From: Dehalococcoidia bacterium
GTDB taxonomy: Bacteria > Chloroflexota > Dehalococcoidia > Lucifugimonadales > UBA3495
Length of the DNA stretch: 64,000 nt
Assembly: GCA_965116565.1 (NCBI GenBank)
Contig: OZ220699.1
Span: 3,658,858-3,722,857, forward strand
Reading direction: 5' to 3'
The notes under the pieces were generated by a model. It ran no database searches. It was not told the DNA's origin and saw only the letters and a program-made list of their open reading frames with translations. Position 1 is the first letter of the stretch. The number at the start of each line of letters is the position of its first letter. Of this stretch, positions 8,480-55,780 are shown in pieces. The position numbers were made by a program, and so were the translations under genes.

Positions 8480-8893
8480 ATGATCGTGGACGACTTCCTT
8501 GACACCCTCAGAGACGCAATCGGTCAACTTGATCGAGGCGTAGTGGCGTATGCCACCGACCCTCACGCAGAATTCGTGCGTGATGCGCTGATCTCCCGTT
8601 TCACGTTCACTTTCGCCCAAACGGCAACAACGCTTGGACGCTACCTGGACATCGTCTATTGCCTGCCTGATGCTCGTACGCTATCGCCGCGACAGGCCAT
8701 CCGACATGCCGCCCGGCTCGGTTTGATCGACAACTGCGAGGCGTGGCTGCGTCACGTGGAGAATCGCAACCGAGTGGCCCATGCGTACCTGGAATCCCTG
8801 GCGATAATGGTCGCCAATGGGTCTGCCGCCTTCGCCGCCGATGCCAGGCCCCTCCTCAACGCCATGGAACGGGGAATCGCAGATGGCGGCTGA
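8480..8893 (+). CDS. HEPN-type nucleotidyltransferase substrate-binding protein (HI0074-like, HepT-like toxin)
   Basis: RDALISRFTFTF.. and the Rx4H motif RNRVAH match the HI0074 family as remembered. It overlaps the next gene by 11 nt. Confidence 0.7.
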   Translation: MIVDDFLDTLRDAIGQLDRGVVAYATDPHAEFVRDALISRFTFTFAQTATTLGRYLDIVYCLPDARTLSPRQAIRHAARLGLIDNCEAWLRHVENRNRVAHAYLESLAIMVANGSAAFAADARPLLNAMERGIADGG

Positions 8894-9200
8894 GGAGTCC
8901 CGCCACATCGACCTCTCGCCGGAGCACCGCTCCCAGGTGCTGGGCATCATCCGCCGTCGCCTGCCCGATGCCCGGATCTGGGTGTACGGCTCGCGCGCCA
9001 AGGGCCGCGCCCGTCGCTACAGCGACCTCGACCTCATGCTCGACCACTGCGGCGATCCCATTCCCGTCAGGATCATGGGCGACCTGGACGAAGACTTCGA
9101 CGAGTCCAACCTGCCCATCATCGTGGAACTGCACGATATTGCGCTCACCGACGCGCGATTCCTGGAGCGCGTGCGCAAGGATTTCCTGCTCCTCAACTGA
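8883..9200 (+). CDS. MNT-type nucleotidyltransferase (HI0073-like, MntA-like antitoxin)
   Basis: VYGSRAKGRARRYSDLDLML carries the GS..DxD NTase motif. Start chosen at ATG 8883 (MAAEESRH). Confidence 0.7.
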   Translation: MAAEESRHIDLSPEHRSQVLGIIRRRLPDARIWVYGSRAKGRARRYSDLDLMLDHCGDPIPVRIMGDLDEDFDESNLPIIVELHDIALTDARFLERVRKDFLLLN

Positions 9201-50821: not shown

Positions 50822-51143
50822 ATGTATGCCGTTCCTGACATACCTGCCGCACCTAGAGAAAAGATGAACCGAGTTTTCGCCACCTAACCGGAGTTGATGG
50901 CGGTAACGCTGTACGGCTCCCGCGCCACTGGCTAGGCGAAACCGCGCTCCGACTTCGACTTGGCCACCCACGGCATCACCGATCACTACCGGCCGGGTCG
51001 GCCGGCGTTGGATTTGGAGGATCTGAACATCCCGCAGAAGTGCGACGTGCAGGCGTGCGAAAGCATGAACCAACGGTCGCTGCAACGGCATATTGACGAG
51101 GTGGGTATCGAGATTTACCGGAGGAAGGAAGGATACAAGACGG
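50822..51143 (+). pseudogene. MNT-type nucleotidyltransferase with two in-frame stops
   Basis: One frame reads MYAVPDIPAAPREKMNRVFAT*PELMAVTLYGSRATG*AKPRSDFDLATHG..DLEDLNIPQKCDV..GIEIYRR. The stops are TAA 50885-50887 and TAG 50933-50935. The TAG sits where GSRArGeA normally has Glu. Confidence 0.65.
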
Positions 51144-51623
51144 ATGGACTTGAACACGCGGAAGGAACGGTTTTCACTGGCATATATCAACGCCGTGGCA
51201 ACTTATGCAAACTGCGAGGTAATGGAGCCGAAGGTTGACCGAGGTAGCGTGGATGGCTTTCTAGTGGGACCGGCCCGAGGGCGTGACCTAATCAGATTCC
51301 AAGCCAAGGCCACTGAACGGAATGTAGTACGAGGCAACCAACTGCATTTTCCGCTACCGGTGCGCGATTACAACCATATGCGCAACGCCGACGCTCCTTT
51401 CGTGCTGATTGTGGTTCGGTTGCCGGACGATGAGAGTCAATGGTTGACGCAAACCGATAATGAGCTTTGCCTGCGCTATTGCGGTTATTGGCTTTCACTG
51501 GCAGATTATCCATCGACCGCTAACACTGCCACTGTGACGGTTCACATTCCATTGGCAAATATTTTCAGTAGTTCTCGACTCACCGAATTGATCGTCCAAG
51601 CGGCAAGAGGAGAACAATTATGA
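51144..51623 (+). CDS. DUF4365-like PD-(D/E)xK nuclease-fold protein
   Basis: ..ERFSLAYINAVA..VDRGSVDGFL..IRFQAKAT..PFVLIVV.. follows the DUF4365 pattern (D.G.DG / Q.K). Start placed at ATG 51144. GC is lower. Confidence 0.6.
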   Translation: MDLNTRKERFSLAYINAVATYANCEVMEPKVDRGSVDGFLVGPARGRDLIRFQAKATERNVVRGNQLHFPLPVRDYNHMRNADAPFVLIVVRLPDDESQWLTQTDNELCLRYCGYWLSLADYPSTANTATVTVHIPLANIFSSSRLTELIVQAARGEQL

Positions 51624-52447
51624 AGGTGCAAATACGAGACCATGAGGCGCTGGAGTCATTAACCGCTGCCGGCTTGCGGGAATATCTGGAAGCAAATGGC
51701 TGGTCTTACGCTGGACACTGGGGAGAGCGCCCTATCGTCATATACAGCAAGGAGCAAGATGCTCGGAAGTGGGAGATACTGGTCCCACTCCGAGATACCG
51801 CCAGTGACTACGCCGAGATGCTGGGTTTGGCAGTTACCACTCTGGCCGAGGCTGAAGATAGGTCTCAGTTGGACGTGTTTGGCGACCTGACCAACTGGAG
51901 CATCGACCGGGCACCACCGACCAATCACGGAGAGACAAAGAAAGCACCCAACATCTGGCGCGTTGGCGCTGAGAAAGGCAAGTACACCGAACATTTCGTG
52001 GCCGGCGGATATGCGGCGGCTGGCTGGATACGAGGCGTCGACCTGACCGAGGTCAAGGAGAAAGAAGAATTTAAACGGCTTTTTCGGAAAGAGAATTCCT
52101 CCGCCACGCCCGCTCAGGTTAATGGTAACGCAGCGCAAATCCGTCGCTTTATAGTGGAAATCAAGCCCGGAGATTACATCATCACGCCAACAACGACGTA
52201 CAACTTGCTACGATATGGCCGCGTCAAATCCGGCGTTTACTACAAGGCCGAGCCCGACGACGGCTGTCCGTTCCCGCACCGTCGCCAGGTCGATTGGGCC
52301 AAGCGACCTCTGAATAGCCAGGAATTCCCCCAAAAACTCTACAATGCGATGAAATTTCCTCAATTGACAGTGTACTCGGTTCGTCATCGGGAACAGTTCC
52401 TAGCGGCGGTCGTCGAGTCACTGTGGCTAAACGCTCGTTGGCTGTGA
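51620..52447 (+). CDS. two-domain hypothetical protein (unknown N-domain + module resembling N-termini of McrB/Mrr-type restriction proteins)
   Basis: The ATGA overlap with the upstream stop suggests translational coupling. The C-terminal half (IWRVGAEKGKYTEHFVAGGYAAAGW..IRRFIVEIKPGDYIITP..YGRVKSGVYY..PHRRQVDW) resembles an unnamed module I recall from restriction ATPases and nucleases. Confidence 0.5.
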   Translation: MKVQIRDHEALESLTAAGLREYLEANGWSYAGHWGERPIVIYSKEQDARKWEILVPLRDTASDYAEMLGLAVTTLAEAEDRSQLDVFGDLTNWSIDRAPPTNHGETKKAPNIWRVGAEKGKYTEHFVAGGYAAAGWIRGVDLTEVKEKEEFKRLFRKENSSATPAQVNGNAAQIRRFIVEIKPGDYIITPTTTYNLLRYGRVKSGVYYKAEPDDGCPFPHRRQVDWAKRPLNSQEFPQKLYNAMKFPQLTVYSVRHREQFLAAVVESLWLNARWL

Positions 52448-53529: not shown

Positions 53530-54318
53530 TTGACTGAGGAATATCCATCTGAAATTGAACTTGACCCTCAGCGGTTCAAGCTGGGCAGCGAATCGGAACT
53601 CACCTACCGGCTGAAGTGGGAAGCCTGGGAGTGGCTGTACTGCGTGGCCCGCTGCCGTTGCATCGGGCTGGAGGTGCGGCTGCAAGGCCCGTGGGGGTCG
53701 GTGATTGACGTGGTGGGCGTCGGCCCGGCCAACACGATCTACGTGATGGAGGTCAAGGTGTCCCGGTCGGATTTCGCGCGGGACAACCACACCGACGCTG
53801 ACCTTGCCCGCCTGCGCAAGCGGGCCGATTCATTGGCGCGACGAATCGAGCTGGCGGATGCGCCATCATACCGGACGTCTGCTGGCGACCTGGACCGGTT
53901 GCTGCAAGAACAGGAACGACTGCGCGAACGACTGGCTACCGTATCCACCAAGTTCCACGACCCGCGGTTTTTGAGTATCGCCGACTATCACTACATCATG
54001 GCGCCCCGGGGCGTCGTGCTGGCCGAAATGCTGGCCGGCGGATGGGGTCTGCTGGAGCAGGGTCCGCGAGAGGTCGTGGCAGCGCCCACCAAGCACATAC
54101 GGAAGAACGGTGGCATCATGTCCAACGTGCTGCGGTCGGTGGCGCGGGCCAACTCAACGGCTATGATGCGGGCGCACGGGGTACGGTTCGGGAGCGACGG
54201 GGCTGTTTTTCCGCGCCCCGGTGACGAGCGCTTTCCCGCGTACGTGCGGGGCGAACAGGCGACAAACAGGACCGCAACGGCAATCACGGAGGATAAGCAT
54301 GGCTGCCATCAAGATTGA
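53530..54318 (+). CDS. MmcB-like PD-(D/E)xK nuclease-fold protein
   Basis: ..SVIDVVGVGPANTIYVMEVKVSRSDFARD.. and ..ADYHYIMAP..GWGLL.. resemble the MmcB/DUF1052 layout with an inserted coiled-coil. TTG start. Confidence 0.4.
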   Translation: MTEEYPSEIELDPQRFKLGSESELTYRLKWEAWEWLYCVARCRCIGLEVRLQGPWGSVIDVVGVGPANTIYVMEVKVSRSDFARDNHTDADLARLRKRADSLARRIELADAPSYRTSAGDLDRLLQEQERLRERLATVSTKFHDPRFLSIADYHYIMAPRGVVLAEMLAGGWGLLEQGPREVVAAPTKHIRKNGGIMSNVLRSVARANSTAMMRAHGVRFGSDGAVFPRPGDERFPAYVRGEQATNRTATAITEDKHGCHQD

Positions 54319-54928: not shown

Positions 54929-55780
54929 TCATTCAGGACGTAAATCTCGGTCGACCAGTTTGTGCCAGTGCACCATCCCACGGTCGATGGTGTCCTGGAT
55001 TTCGTTCACGTTCTGGATGCTGGCGATGGCCGGATGGGCCGGATGGCCGGTGAAGCGGGTCAGGAGGCCGGCATTCCGGATGGCGCGACGGGTATCGCGC
55101 TCATCGGCGGTATACGATATCTCCATAGCGATGTACTGTGTCTCACCGTTTGTGTCGGTGGCTTCGATGACCAGATCGGCGCTGCGGAAACTAAGAATAT
55201 CGCCATCGGCAATTCCGGAAGTGTCGGCAGACGTTGTCATGCTGACGAGGTCGCCGTATGACAGCGTGCGCACCATCCGGAAACCCATCACGATGGCCAC
55301 TCCATCTGCCTGCCTGATGGTTTCGTCGCGGGCGTGGAACCCTTTGACGGTACCCAAGTCATCTCGAATCGTGCGGACATCGTTTTTGAGTTGCCCCACA
55401 TCCTCCTTCAGCTGTGCCACATCTTCACGAATCTCTCGGACATCCGATTCCAGGCGATCCGTACGCCCGCTGGCTTCTTCGTTGAACTGGCGCTGATCCT
55501 GATTGAACCGGCGTTGTTCCTCGTTGATCTGGCGCTGATCCTCGCTGAACCGACGTTGTTCTTCGTTGAACTGGCGCTGATCCTCATTGAACCGGCGTTG
55601 TTCTTCGTTGAACTGTTCGGTATCGGCCATGAACTGCTCAGTGGTCGCCGCGAAGCGATCGAAGCGCGCGGGCAAGTTCATCAGTTCCTCGGTGAGGATC
55701 TCGCGCCGAACTTCCGCTTTCCACTCCGGCCGCTCACGCAGCACGCGGAGTATGTCATCGCTGGTATGGATGATTACCAT
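54929..55780 (-). CDS. coiled-coil repeat protein with nuclease-like C-terminal domain
   Basis: Seven 7-aa repeats (EEQRRFN/EDQRQFN). The C-terminal ..ADLVIEATD..YIAMEISYT.. loosely resembles a PD-(D/E)xK core. Confidence 0.5.
   Translation of the reverse strand: MVIIHTSDDILRVLRERPEWKAEVRREILTEELMNLPARFDRFAATTEQFMADTEQFNEEQRRFNEDQRQFNEEQRRFSEDQRQINEEQRRFNQDQRQFNEEASGRTDRLESDVREIREDVAQLKEDVGQLKNDVRTIRDDLGTVKGFHARDETIRQADGVAIVMGFRMVRTLSYGDLVSMTTSADTSGIADGDILSFRSADLVIEATDTNGETQYIAMEISYTADERDTRRAIRNAGLLTRFTGHPAHPAIASIQNVNEIQDTIDRGMVHWHKLVDRDLRPE
55478..55624. repeat. 21-nt tandem repeat x7 (alternating A/B units) inside CDS
   Basis: Units start at 55478, 55499, 55520, 55541, 55562, 55583 and 55604, for example TTCGTTGAACTGGCGCTGATC and CTGATTGAACCGGCGTTGTTC. 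Confidence 0.85.

What the first reader, a model, noticed from the sequence alone, without database searches (positions are those of the whole stretch)
51144..52447. Candidate undescribed two-gene nuclease/sensor cassette (DUF4365 + two-domain partner) in a low-GC patch
A DUF4365-type PD-(D/E)xK-fold protein (160 aa) is translationally coupled to a 275-aa protein through an ATGA overlap at 51620-51623. The partner's N-terminal ~100 aa (..LREYLEANGWSY..EILVPLRDTASDYAEMLGLAVTTLAEAEDRS..) is unknown to me. Its C-terminal ~170 aa resembles the module found at the N-termini of McrB/Mrr-like restriction proteins (WRxxAG..GW, ..RF..E(I/M)KPGD, ..PHRRxVxW). The patch is visibly AT-richer than its flanks. 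It sits between a dead toxin-antitoxin gene and an LLM oxidoreductase, and has no methyltransferase partner. This looks like a compact, possibly modification-dependent, defence module that I cannot match to a named system.
Basis: partly seen in the sequence, partly recalled or inferred. Interest (0 to 1): 0.7.

Follow-up and report, generated by a model that had tools for sequence, protein, structure and literature searches.

The report
Split nuclease plus modified-base reader cassette
Two overlapping genes encode a small DNA-cutting enzyme and a partner that carries a "modified-base reader" domain; it is a stripped-down, previously uncharacterised variant of an untested candidate anti-virus system, sitting in a fast-changing spot of a Dehalococcoidia chromosome.

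Summary
Gene A (51144-51623) is a stand-alone DUF4365/DREN-type PD-(D/E)xK nuclease with an intact D..QxK motif. Gene B (51620-52447) overlaps it by ATGA. The patch is about 10 GC points below its flanks (GC3 0.53-0.62 against 0.83-0.85).

The cassette is catalogued, but only as an untested candidate. A matches PADLOC candidate PDC-M02A over its full length. B is a chimera. Its first ~97 residues are the N-terminal domain shared by all PDC-M02B partners. Its residues ~110-275 are DUF8426, the N-terminal half of the single-gene candidate PDC-S02, without that protein's Mrr_cat nuclease.

The DUF8426 model matches only YTH domains among its 50 best PDB fold hits. Elsewhere DUF8426 is fused to McrB-type AAA_5, GmrSD_N and Mrr_cat.

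In sister Dehalococcoidia genomes the same Pterin_4a-LLM site carries every combination: A with long B, A with short B, B without A, PDC-S02 alone, and A with PDC-S11-type partners.

A and the N-domain co-diverge (r=0.95), whereas the reader domain is shuffled (r=0.27). Both genes are under purifying selection (dN/dS 0.04 and 0.26).

Best reading: a split, modification-dependent, type-IV-like nuclease. Function is inferred, not shown. It is a new variant of a known kind.

The parts
51144..51623 (+). Gene A: stand-alone DUF4365 / DREN-type PD-(D/E)xK nuclease, 159 aa. Conserved E8, D32, D37, Q53, K55.
   Evidence: Pfam DUF4365 E 5e-16. PADLOC PDC-M02A E 2.9e-45 over 1-158 of a 165-position profile. 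D32, D37, G38, Q53 and K55 are invariant in 34 homologues. The equivalent D41/Q60/K62 are catalytic in NbaSPARDA DREN (PMC12205087), and Q62/K64 in TmuRE (PMC10810196). dN/dS 0.043 against L001.
51620..51623 (+). ATGA start/stop overlap coupling A and B
   Evidence: Read directly in the sequence. An ATGA or GTGA overlap is conserved in L001, L002, L004, L014, L016, L019 and L020.
51620..51910 (+). Gene B residues 1-97: conserved N-terminal domain shared by all PDC-M02B-type partners (proposed adaptor to A). Helix-helix, three strands, two helices.
   Evidence: PADLOC PDC-M02B profiles match residues 1-96 only (E 4e-22, positions 1-95 of 380). The same domain heads partners with five different C-terminal modules. 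The AF2 model has pLDDT 87 and no significant PDB fold match. Its identity to sister loci tracks that of A (r=0.95).
51911..51946 (+). Gene B residues 98-109: low-confidence linker between the two domains
   Evidence: pLDDT below 50 for residues 98-106 in the AF2 model. This stretch is variable in alignment A1.
51947..52447 (+). Gene B residues 110-275: DUF8426 (PF28530), a YTH/PUA-like predicted modified-base reader. The Mrr_cat nuclease present in long homologues is absent.
   Evidence: Precomputed Pfam PF28530/DUF8426. PADLOC PDC-S02 E 2.2e-46 over positions 3-159 of 324. All 50 best Foldseek PDB hits are YTH domains (best E 8e-4, prob 1.0). Fusions to AAA_5, GmrSD_N and Mrr_cat occur elsewhere. 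W113, G120, G135, F177, G184, D185, P190, G200, D214, P217, R221, W226 and F260 are invariant. dN/dS 0.27 against L001.
50822..51130 (+). Context, not part of the system: MNT (Polbeta nucleotidyltransferase) pseudogene. It is the remnant of a HEPN/MNT pair that is intact at the same hotspot in sister genomes.
   Evidence: tblastn with the L002 MNT gives 70% identity over 103 aa with two in-frame stops; the HEPN partner is not found here. HEPN and MNT are intact in L002, L017, L018 and L020.

Best explanation
The cassette is a two-subunit, modification-dependent (type-IV-restriction-like) nuclease. It is a derived variant of the untested PADLOC candidate family PDC-M02.

Shown:
- Gene A is a stand-alone DREN/DUF4365 PD-(D/E)xK nuclease with an intact catalytic motif.
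- Gene B has two domains joined by a flexible linker. The first is the ~97-aa N-terminal domain found in every PDC-M02B-type partner. The second is DUF8426, a YTH/PUA-like fold that other proteins place in front of McrB-type GTPases, GmrSD and Mrr_cat nucleases.
- In this lineage the ancestral B was a complete PDC-S02 protein (DUF8426 + Mrr_cat) fused behind the N-domain. In the window the Mrr_cat part has been cleanly deleted, so A is the only nuclease.

Inferred:
- The N-domain holds A in a stoichiometric complex; translational coupling and co-divergence point that way.
- DUF8426 binds a modified base on incoming (phage or plasmid) nucleic acid.
- Several A-B units binding close together on densely modified DNA bring the otherwise monomeric, inactive DREN domains together, as in SPARDA where tetramerisation switches the nuclease on.
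- The nucleic acid is then cut, either locally or as collateral damage.
For: Identity of A. Catalytic-motif equivalence with tested DUF4365 nucleases.

Chimeric nature of B. Long homologues consist of the N-domain plus a complete PDC-S02 (1-323 of 324).

Reader fold: AF2 pLDDT 87, and all 50 top PDB fold hits are YTH domains.

Domain company of DUF8426: of 20 long proteins scanned, 11 carry AAA_5, 2 GmrSD_N, 2 Mrr_cat, 3 DUF900, 1 HEPN_Swt1 and 1 NERD-kinase. [quoted passage not shown]

Pairing: every intact A examined (11 distinct loci, two of them reached from A) is followed by a partner with the N-domain, with a start/stop overlap in those checked. Thirty-one contig lengths are shared between the A and B hit lists.

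Co-divergence: identity to the window correlates between A and the N-domain (r=0.95, n=9) but not between A and DUF8426 (r=0.27, n=7).

Selection: dN/dS is 0.043 (A) and 0.26 (B) at dS of about 0.45-0.6, equal to the flanks. The short form with the same C-terminal end (..LWxxARW(L)) persists down to 58% identity.

Reciprocal loss of the two nucleases across sister loci is consistent with redundancy: Mrr_cat is lost with A kept in the window, L001, L004, L005 and L019; A is lost with Mrr_cat kept in L018 and L008; both are kept in L002 and L007.

Defence-like behaviour of the site: presence/absence and module polymorphism, low GC, neighbouring HEPN/MNT.
Against: - No experiment exists for PDC-M02. 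The one published test of a PDC-S02 representative in E. coli B gave no protection against T4, T5 or T7 (10.1101/2024.09.26.614923).
- The YTH match is at fold level only (TM about 0.5, about 10% identity). No sequence-level link to any solved reader was found, and the aromatic cage was not checked in 3D.
- The N-domain has no significant structural relative, and its binding to A is inferred, not shown.
- The locus decays often in sister genomes: A is a pseudogene or remnant in L013 and L018, frameshifted in L006, and absent in L017. The window copy could be on the same path.
- B's dN/dS is 3-6 times that of the flanking genes.
- The cassette sits among housekeeping genes, not in a recognisable defence island.
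Confidence: 0.55

Rival explanations
1. Decaying remnant. The cassette is the wreck of a larger system (A plus N-domain-DUF8426-Mrr_cat). The loss of Mrr_cat inactivated it, and it persists only because too little time has passed.
For: Mrr_cat is cleanly deleted relative to the 429-aa homologues. Other short forms keep linker remnants or internal deletions (P0017, P0041, P0037, P0024). Sister loci show A pseudogenes or remnants (L013, L018), a frameshifted A (L006), and complete loss (L017). A dead MNT gene lies directly upstream.
Against: Both ORFs are intact and the catalytic residues invariant. dN/dS is 0.043 for A and 0.26 for B at dS of about 0.5. The short form with an identical C-terminal end is conserved down to 58% identity, and A is present wherever it could be checked: the window, L001 and L005 directly, and P0006, P0011 and P0014 by shared contig length.
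Confidence: 0.15
2. RNA-directed or abortive version. DUF8426 reads a modified RNA (a phage transcript, tRNA, or m6A RNA, as eukaryotic YTH domains do). The DREN nuclease, which cuts both DNA and RNA in SPARDA, then degrades nucleic acids non-specifically, causing dormancy or death rather than restriction.
For: Every top fold hit is an RNA m6A reader. DREN is a collateral 'DNA and RNA effector nuclease' that kills or arrests the cell (PMC12205087). DUF8426 is also fused to HEPN_Swt1, an RNase-type domain, and to non-nuclease effectors (DUF900 hydrolase, NERD-kinase).
Against: Most DUF8426 fusions are to DNA-restriction modules: AAA_5/McrB-type, GmrSD_N and Mrr_cat. The only prokaryotic YTH-like domain cited here as tested for binding, in an archaeal McrB homologue, binds m6A DNA (PMC7641849).
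Confidence: 0.15
3. Toxin-antitoxin-like logic. A is a constitutively toxic nuclease, the N-domain of B is its inhibitor, and the C-terminal sensor releases A when triggered.
For: The two genes are small, overlapping and translationally coupled. A DUF4365 toxin domain is lethal in E. coli (EAT16, PMC11297309). Loci with B but no A exist (L017, L018), whereas no intact A without a partner was seen. The N-domain is weakly HicA/dsRBD-like.
Against: The isolated DREN domain is monomeric and inactive in SPARDA. Only two loci were found by starting from A, so 'A never alone' is weakly sampled. The HicA-like match is not significant (E 0.35).
Confidence: 0.1
4. Housekeeping nucleic-acid processing (repair or modified-base surveillance) that belongs to the conserved ASL / AP-endonuclease-2 / pterin dehydratase / LLM neighbourhood.
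For: The cassette occupies the same chromosomal position in many Dehalococcoidia genomes, and between the window and L001 its dS matches that of the flanks.
Against: The site is polymorphic for presence, for partner type and for gene decay. GC3 is 20-30 points below the flanks. Module identities are mosaic relative to the flanks. Both proteins match only defence-candidate models. A also occurs at unrelated sites with other partners (L016, L021).
Confidence: 0.03

Closest known systems
PADLOC phage-defence candidate PDC-M02 (A = DUF4365, B = ~380-aa partner); Payne et al. bioRxiv 10.1101/2024.01.29.577857
   Same: A is a full-length PDC-M02A match. B starts with the same ~95-aa N-domain. The gene order, strand and start/stop overlap are the same.
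   Different: B lacks the ~280-aa canonical PDC-M02B C-terminal region and carries DUF8426 instead; only 95 of 380 profile positions match. PDC-M02 itself is an untested guilt-by-embedding prediction.
PADLOC candidate PDC-S02 (single protein: DUF8426 + Mrr_cat, ~320 aa)
   Same: B residues 111-266 match positions 3-159 of the PDC-S02 profile at E 2.2e-46. A stand-alone PDC-S02 occupies the same chromosomal site in L008.
   Different: The Mrr_cat nuclease half is absent. An N-terminal adaptor domain and a separate DUF4365 nuclease are present instead. One PDC-S02 representative gave no protection against T4, T5 or T7 in E. coli B.
Type IV modification-dependent restriction enzymes built from a PUA-superfamily reader plus a nuclease (EVE-HNH VcaM4I/TspA15I; YTH-like McrB N-terminal domain of Thermococcus gammatolerans; Mrr; GmrSD)
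   Same: A PUA/YTH-like reader is combined with a PD-(D/E)xK nuclease and no methyltransferase.
   Different: Reader and nuclease are on separate polypeptides, joined (by inference) through a dedicated adaptor domain. The nuclease is DUF4365/DREN rather than HNH, Mrr_cat or McrC, and there is no NTPase motor. The modification recognised is unknown.
SPARDA (short prokaryotic Argonaute with DREN/DUF4365-APAZ)
   Same: The same nuclease family with the same D..QxK catalytic motif. It offers a precedent for activation by sensor-driven oligomerisation.
   Different: There is no APAZ domain and no Argonaute. A is a 159-aa stand-alone protein. The sensor is a predicted modified-base reader, not a guide-RNA-loaded pAgo.

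Membership tests
PDC-M02 (PADLOC candidate) | Protein A matches a PDC-M02A (DUF4365) model over its full length | tested here: met
   PDLC04297 E 2.9e-45, residues 1-158 on profile positions 1-164 of 165
PDC-M02 (PADLOC candidate) | Protein B matches a PDC-M02B model over its full length (~380 aa) | tested here: not met
   Only residues 1-96 match, on profile positions 1-95 of 380 (E 4e-22). By contrast, canonical P0092 matches positions 1-375 of 380.
PDC-M02 (PADLOC candidate) | A and B adjacent on the same strand, A first | tested here: met
   ATGA overlap at 51620-51623; the same arrangement in 11 loci
PDC-S02 (PADLOC candidate) | N-terminal DUF8426 domain | tested here: met
   PDLC04806 E 2.2e-46, profile positions 3-159 of 324; PF28530 in the precomputed annotation
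PDC-S02 (PADLOC candidate) | C-terminal Mrr_cat nuclease in the same polypeptide | tested here: not met
   No Mrr_cat hit in B. B ends at residue 275, 50 nt before the LLM gene. Long homologues have Mrr_cat at about 288-405.
Type IV modification-dependent restriction | A domain that recognises a modified base (PUA superfamily: SRA/EVE/YTH/ASCH, or wH) | tested here: inconclusive
   Fold level: all 50 best PDB hits are YTH domains, E down to 8e-4, TM about 0.5. No sequence-level link to a solved reader. The binding pocket was not examined.
Type IV modification-dependent restriction | An associated endonuclease with intact catalytic residues | tested here: met
   A carries invariant D37, Q53 and K55, which correspond to mutationally tested residues in DUF4365 nucleases
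Type IV modification-dependent restriction | No cognate methyltransferase | tested here: met
   No methyltransferase family among the genes called within about 5 kb in the syntenic loci. The immediate neighbours in the window are pterin-4a dehydratase and LLM; the rest of the window's ORFs were not scanned.
Type IV modification-dependent restriction | Cleavage that depends on substrate modification | not testable with these tools
   Needs biochemistry or phage/plasmid challenge
SPARDA (short pAgo + DREN-APAZ) | DREN/DUF4365 nuclease domain | tested here: met
   Pfam DUF4365 E 5e-16
SPARDA (short pAgo + DREN-APAZ) | APAZ domain fused to the nuclease, and a short Argonaute (MID-PIWI) partner | tested here: not met
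   A is 159 aa and is covered end to end by DUF4365. B has no Argonaute or APAZ hit in Pfam or PADLOC. The only pAgo-related hit is to A's nuclease part: Aga_REase, E 4.7e-4.
McrBC | AAA+ GTPase McrB and nuclease McrC | tested here: not met
   No AAA_5 or McrC hit in A, B or their neighbours. AAA_5 occurs only in other DUF8426 proteins.

The most novel reading that the evidence does not exclude
The DREN nuclease and the ~97-aa N-domain form a portable 'effector plus docking domain' pair. This pair can be bolted onto otherwise autonomous single-gene defence proteins (complete PDC-S02, complete PDC-S11) or onto other sensor modules (TPR repeats, the canonical M02B C-region). Once docked, the captured protein's own nuclease becomes dispensable. 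The window would then show the end state: a pure reader subunit (YTH-like DUF8426) driving a trans-acting DREN nuclease, which is switched on by clustering on densely modified nucleic acid. This would be a new organisational principle for type-IV-like immunity, and it would extend the SPARDA oligomerisation switch to a non-Argonaute sensor.
Probability: 0.3. Interest if true: 0.7.

Novelty: new variant of a known kind. Interest (0 to 1): 0.5.

Why it matters
If it works as proposed, several things would follow.
- It would be the first functional assignment for the widespread but untested PDC-M02 and PDC-S02 candidates.
- The DREN/DUF4365 nuclease would be shown to be deployed outside Argonaute systems, through a dedicated docking domain.
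- It would be a natural example of effector exchange, with one sensor and two alternative nucleases lost reciprocally. That would help explain how modular defence genes evolve.
- A small modified-base reader that drives a trans-acting, possibly collateral, nuclease could also be useful as a tool for detecting DNA or RNA modifications.
- The conserved Pterin_4a-LLM site in Dehalococcoidia is a ready-made natural experiment in defence-gene turnover in an uncultured, ecologically important lineage.

Tried and rejected
- NCBIfam gave nothing for A, B or their relatives.
- Sequence searches against all PDB chains gave nothing significant. This covered A alone, the A profile (best EcoRV at E 0.84, with the catalytic residues in register but not significant), and the B profiles. 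The link to SPARDA structures therefore rests on Pfam DUF4365 and the literature, not on a direct PDB match.
- The fold search with the N-domain alone gave no significant match (best E 0.18). A HicA/dsRBD-like alpha-beta3-alpha resemblance is only a hint.
The lineage is inferred from the titles of sister loci (Dehalococcoidia MAGs).
The repeat found only 8 loci, so genome-wide co-occurrence statistics were not possible.
- The DUF8426 profile search picked up some N-domain and Mrr_cat columns (348 profile positions), so the total of 5620 hits overstates the DUF8426 family.
- The promoter/terminator scan found nothing above shuffled expectation near the cassette.
- Rfam found nothing in the whole window.
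- I considered that minus-strand ORFs inside the region (51659-52138, 51292-51513) might be the real genes. I rejected this because they have no homologues, whereas the plus-strand ORFs have conserved homologues under purifying selection.
- An A-B complex prediction and a 3D check of an aromatic cage were not possible with the tools at hand.
Full report
**1. The observation.** Gene A runs 51144-51623 (+, 159 aa). A longer TTG-initiated ORF exists, but 34 homologues all begin MDLNTRKERFSLAY, which fixes the ATG at 51144. Gene B runs 51620-52447 (+, 275 aa) and overlaps A by ATGA.

- A is Pfam DUF4365 (E 5e-16). B has no hit in the local Pfam copy.
- GC drops to 0.51-0.55 across 51000-52400, against 0.61-0.69 in the flanks.
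- At third codon positions the contrast is larger: 0.53 (A) and 0.62 (B) against 0.83-0.85 in the flanking pterin dehydratase and LLM genes.
- Upstream, 50822-51130 is a dead MNT nucleotidyltransferase gene. It is 70% identical in protein to an intact MNT at the same site in a sister genome, has two in-frame stops, and its HEPN partner is deleted.
- Downstream lies a luciferase-like monooxygenase (E 6e-58).

**2. What the proteins are.** The PADLOC library gives the key result.

- A matches candidate PDC-M02A end to end (E 2.9e-45).
- B is a chimera. Residues 1-96 match only the first 95 of about 380 positions of the PDC-M02B profiles (E 4e-22). Residues 111-266 match positions 3-159 of 324 of the single-gene candidate PDC-S02 (E 2.2e-46).
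- The precomputed Pfam annotation of B's homologues names the C-terminal half PF28530/DUF8426.
- Homologues of about 429 aa consist of the N-domain followed by a complete PDC-S02, that is DUF8426 plus an Mrr_cat nuclease.
- Proteins of about 320 aa are PDC-S02 alone.

The PDC systems are 145 untested predictions obtained by 'guilt by embedding' (10.1101/2024.01.29.577857). The only test of a PDC-S02 that I found was negative against T4, T5 and T7 in E. coli B (10.1101/2024.09.26.614923). NCBIfam has no model for either protein.

**3. The nuclease.** D32, D37, G38, Q53 and K55 are invariant in 34 homologues of A, and E8 is nearly so. DUF4365 is the DREN nuclease of SPARDA short-Argonaute systems.

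- In NbaSPARDA the catalytic residues are D41, Q60 and K62. The isolated domain is monomeric and inactive, and it becomes a collateral DNase/RNase only when filament formation forces it into tetramers (PMC12205087).
- In TmuRE the Q62A/K64A double mutant was made as the catalytically inactive control; the residues were predicted from a sequence alignment (PMC10810196).
- In the eCIS toxin EAT16 the DxGxD...QxK residues are needed for toxicity (PMC11297309).

A therefore has an intact active site of a nuclease type known to need assembly for activation. No direct sequence match to a solved structure was obtained.

**4. The partner.** The AlphaFold2 model of B, built on a 110-sequence alignment, has mean pLDDT 87. 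It shows two domains separated by a disordered linker at residues 98-106.

- Against the PDB, all 50 best hits are YTH domains, the m6A readers YTHDF1-3, YTHDC1, MRB1 and Pho92. The best E is 8e-4, probability 1.0, and TM is about 0.5 normalised by target length.
- A profile search of DUF8426 against 1.84 billion representative proteins found mostly PDC-S02-like proteins of about 320 aa and stand-alone domains of 155-200 aa.
- Of 20 longer hits scanned with Pfam, 11 carry AAA_5 (the McrB-type family), 2 GmrSD_N, 2 Mrr_cat, 3 a DUF900 hydrolase, 1 HEPN_Swt1 and 1 NERD plus protein kinase.
- This is the company kept by modified-base readers of type IV restriction enzymes. [quoted passage not shown] Lutz et al. 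list PUA-superfamily fusions to Mrr-like catalytic domains (PMC6765204).

The N-domain modelled alone (pLDDT 87; helix-helix, three strands, two helices) has no significant structural relative. The best hits are weak HicA/dsRBD-like matches with E above 0.18.

**5. Pairing and modularity.** Every intact A that I could inspect is followed by a partner that begins with the N-domain. In the eight loci whose junction was read, start and stop overlap: by 4 nt in seven and by 7 nt in L021.

- These loci are the window, L001, L002/3, L004, L005, L007, L014/15, L016, L019, L020 and L021. The last two were found by starting from A rather than from B.
- Thirty-one contig lengths are shared between the hit lists of A and B.
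- Behind the N-domain the partners carry at least five different C-terminal modules:
  - the canonical PDC-M02B region;
  - DUF8426 with or without Mrr_cat (that is, PDC-S02);
  - a complete PDC-S11 (a PD-(D/E)xK-like domain plus DUF4268);
  - half of PDC-S11 plus an HTH;
  - TPR repeats.
- Across sister loci, identity to the window's A correlates with identity to its N-domain (r=0.95, n=9) but not with identity to its DUF8426 domain (r=0.27, n=7).

A and the N-domain behave as one co-evolving unit, and the sensor part is exchanged independently. That is the basis for calling the N-domain an adaptor. The physical interaction itself is inferred.

**6. The locus in its lineage.** The sister loci come from Dehalococcoidia MAGs. 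In them the cassette always lies between the pterin-4a dehydratase gene and the LLM gene, in an otherwise collinear housekeeping neighbourhood. The site is polymorphic:

| State at the site | Loci |
|---|---|
| A + short B | window, L001, L004, L005, L019 |
| A + long B with Mrr_cat | L002/3, L007 |
| Long B with A reduced to a 40-aa remnant | L018 |
| Short B with no A | L017 |
| PDC-S02 alone | L008 |
| A + PDC-S11-type partner | L014 |
| A + N-domain, half PDC-S11 and C-terminal region | L020 |
| Same partner type as L020, A a pseudogene | L013 |
| Short B, frameshifted A | L006 |

- Additional cargo (HEPN/MNT, or DUF6978 + DUF1828) comes and goes upstream.
- Flanking proteins are 79-97% identical to the window's. 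By contrast A is 58-94%, the N-domain 57-88% and DUF8426 32-76%, in mosaic fashion. L004 has A at 86% but DUF8426 at 46%; L005 has A at 58% but DUF8426 at 68%.
- Synonymous divergence is saturated for those discordant modules while the flanks sit at dS of about 0.5-0.7. This indicates allele replacement by recombination.
- The low GC of A and B is shared by all sister loci.

**7. Is the window's copy alive?** Against the closest relative, L001, dS is 0.45-0.59 for the cassette and 0.51-0.66 for the flanks. The pair has therefore descended vertically since that split.

- dN/dS is 0.043 for A, 0.18 for the N-domain and 0.27 for DUF8426. The flanks range from 0.04 to 0.10.
- The short B ending in ..LWxxARW(L) is conserved down to 58% identity, with A present wherever it could be checked.
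- This argues for maintained function after loss of Mrr_cat.
- Either nuclease can be the one lost in different lineages, which fits the idea that A and Mrr_cat are redundant effectors for the same reader.
- The frequency of decay at this site keeps the 'remnant' rival alive, at about 0.15.

**8. Mechanism.** Shown: an intact DREN-type nuclease; a coupled partner with a conserved docking-type domain and a YTH-like domain of a family used by type IV restriction proteins; no methyltransferase nearby; purifying selection.

Inferred:
- The N-domain tethers A.
- DUF8426 binds a modified base on foreign nucleic acid.
- Clustering of A-B units brings DREN domains together and switches them on, by analogy with SPARDA.
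- The target, or nucleic acid in general, is then cut.

The following are all open:
- whether the substrate is DNA or RNA;
- whether the outcome is restriction or abortive infection;
- whether the N-domain activates A or restrains it.

They are listed as rivals.

**9. Comparison and novelty.** The cassette works like a type IV modification-dependent enzyme split into reader and nuclease subunits. It is not a member of McrBC (no GTPase or McrC) or of SPARDA (no APAZ or Argonaute). It meets the A-protein and adjacency criteria of PDC-M02 but fails the full-length B criterion.

I therefore file it as a new variant of a known kind. The family is catalogued but untested. The architecture here, a pure reader subunit plus a trans DREN nuclease, is not described in any paper I could find: the full-text search for DUF4365 returned 21 papers, and none of the 19 listed has a title or abstract about such a pair. 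Of these I read only four SPARDA or toxin papers and the integron preprint, which describes the single-gene Vibrio integron system 'Divona'.

**10. Verdict.** It is less 'undescribed' than claimed, but it has an informative evolutionary context: modular capture of whole defence proteins by a nuclease-adaptor pair, and reciprocal nuclease loss. Interest 0.5.

Noticed in passing
window 50822-51130 (+): MNT (Polbeta nucleotidyltransferase) pseudogene with two in-frame stops, 70% identical in protein to an intact MNT at the same site in L002. Its HEPN (NTase_sub_bind) partner is deleted here but intact in L002, L017, L018 and L020.
   Followed up: yes
window ~8681-9116 (+): Weak tblastn matches to both the HEPN (E 4e-4) and MNT (E 8e-4) proteins of L002, lying next to each other. 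This may be a second, intact HEPN/MNT pair elsewhere in the window.
   Followed up: no
window 53530-54318 (+): A 262-aa ORF directly after the LLM gene, conserved in most sister loci (61-84% identity, dN/dS 0.09-0.20) but with no Pfam, NCBIfam or PADLOC hit. It contains a 'D..EVKVSRSDF' stretch that resembles a PD-(D/E)xK motif; that resemblance is my reading and was not tested.
   Followed up: partly
window 54929-55780 (-): A 283-aa ORF with a run of near-identical repeats (EEQRRFNEDQRQFNEEQRRFSEDQRQINEEQRRFNQDQRQFNEE). It gives only weak coiled-coil-type PADLOC hits (JetC, LmuB and others, and C3a181 at E 1e-8). The local GC is low, about 0.57.
   Followed up: no
L004 4620-5520 and L019 3621-4531: A DUF6978 + DUF1828 gene pair sits between the pterin dehydratase gene and A in two sister genomes, in the position where others have HEPN/MNT. 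It is a second variable cargo at the same hotspot, of unknown function.
   Followed up: partly
L013 4681-5001; L018 4867-4986; L006 5523-5992; L017: Independent decay of gene A in sister genomes. L013 has a deletion and frameshift, L018 keeps only a 40-aa remnant, L006 has a single frameshift (possibly an assembly error), and L017 has lost A completely. In all four, B is retained.
   Followed up: yes
BFVD hits to the B model: Three phage proteins match the B model. A0A8S5NVT7 (336 aa, Myoviridae) matches at E 4e-10 and is probably a PDC-S02-like protein. A0A482MK90 (101 aa, Nodularia phage) matches at TM 0.81 over about 100 residues. Q6NE06 (381 aa, Leptospira phage LE1) aligns over 80 residues at rmsd 1.7. 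The 101-aa protein could be a stand-alone copy of one B domain, and so a possible decoy. I could not see which domain aligned.
   Followed up: no
P0062, P0289/P0305/P0335, P0299, P0327: DUF8426 is also fused to non-restriction modules: a PNPOx-like domain, a DUF900 alpha/beta hydrolase, HEPN_Swt1, and NERD plus a protein kinase. The reader domain therefore serves a wider set of effectors than nucleases.
   Followed up: partly
L001 1-1569, L004 53-1141, L013 53-1141: Two or three tandem 171-aa PaREP1-family genes lie a few kb upstream of the hotspot in several sister genomes.
   Followed up: no
window 1-64000: No Rfam family reaches its gathering score anywhere in the 64-kb window.
   Followed up: yes
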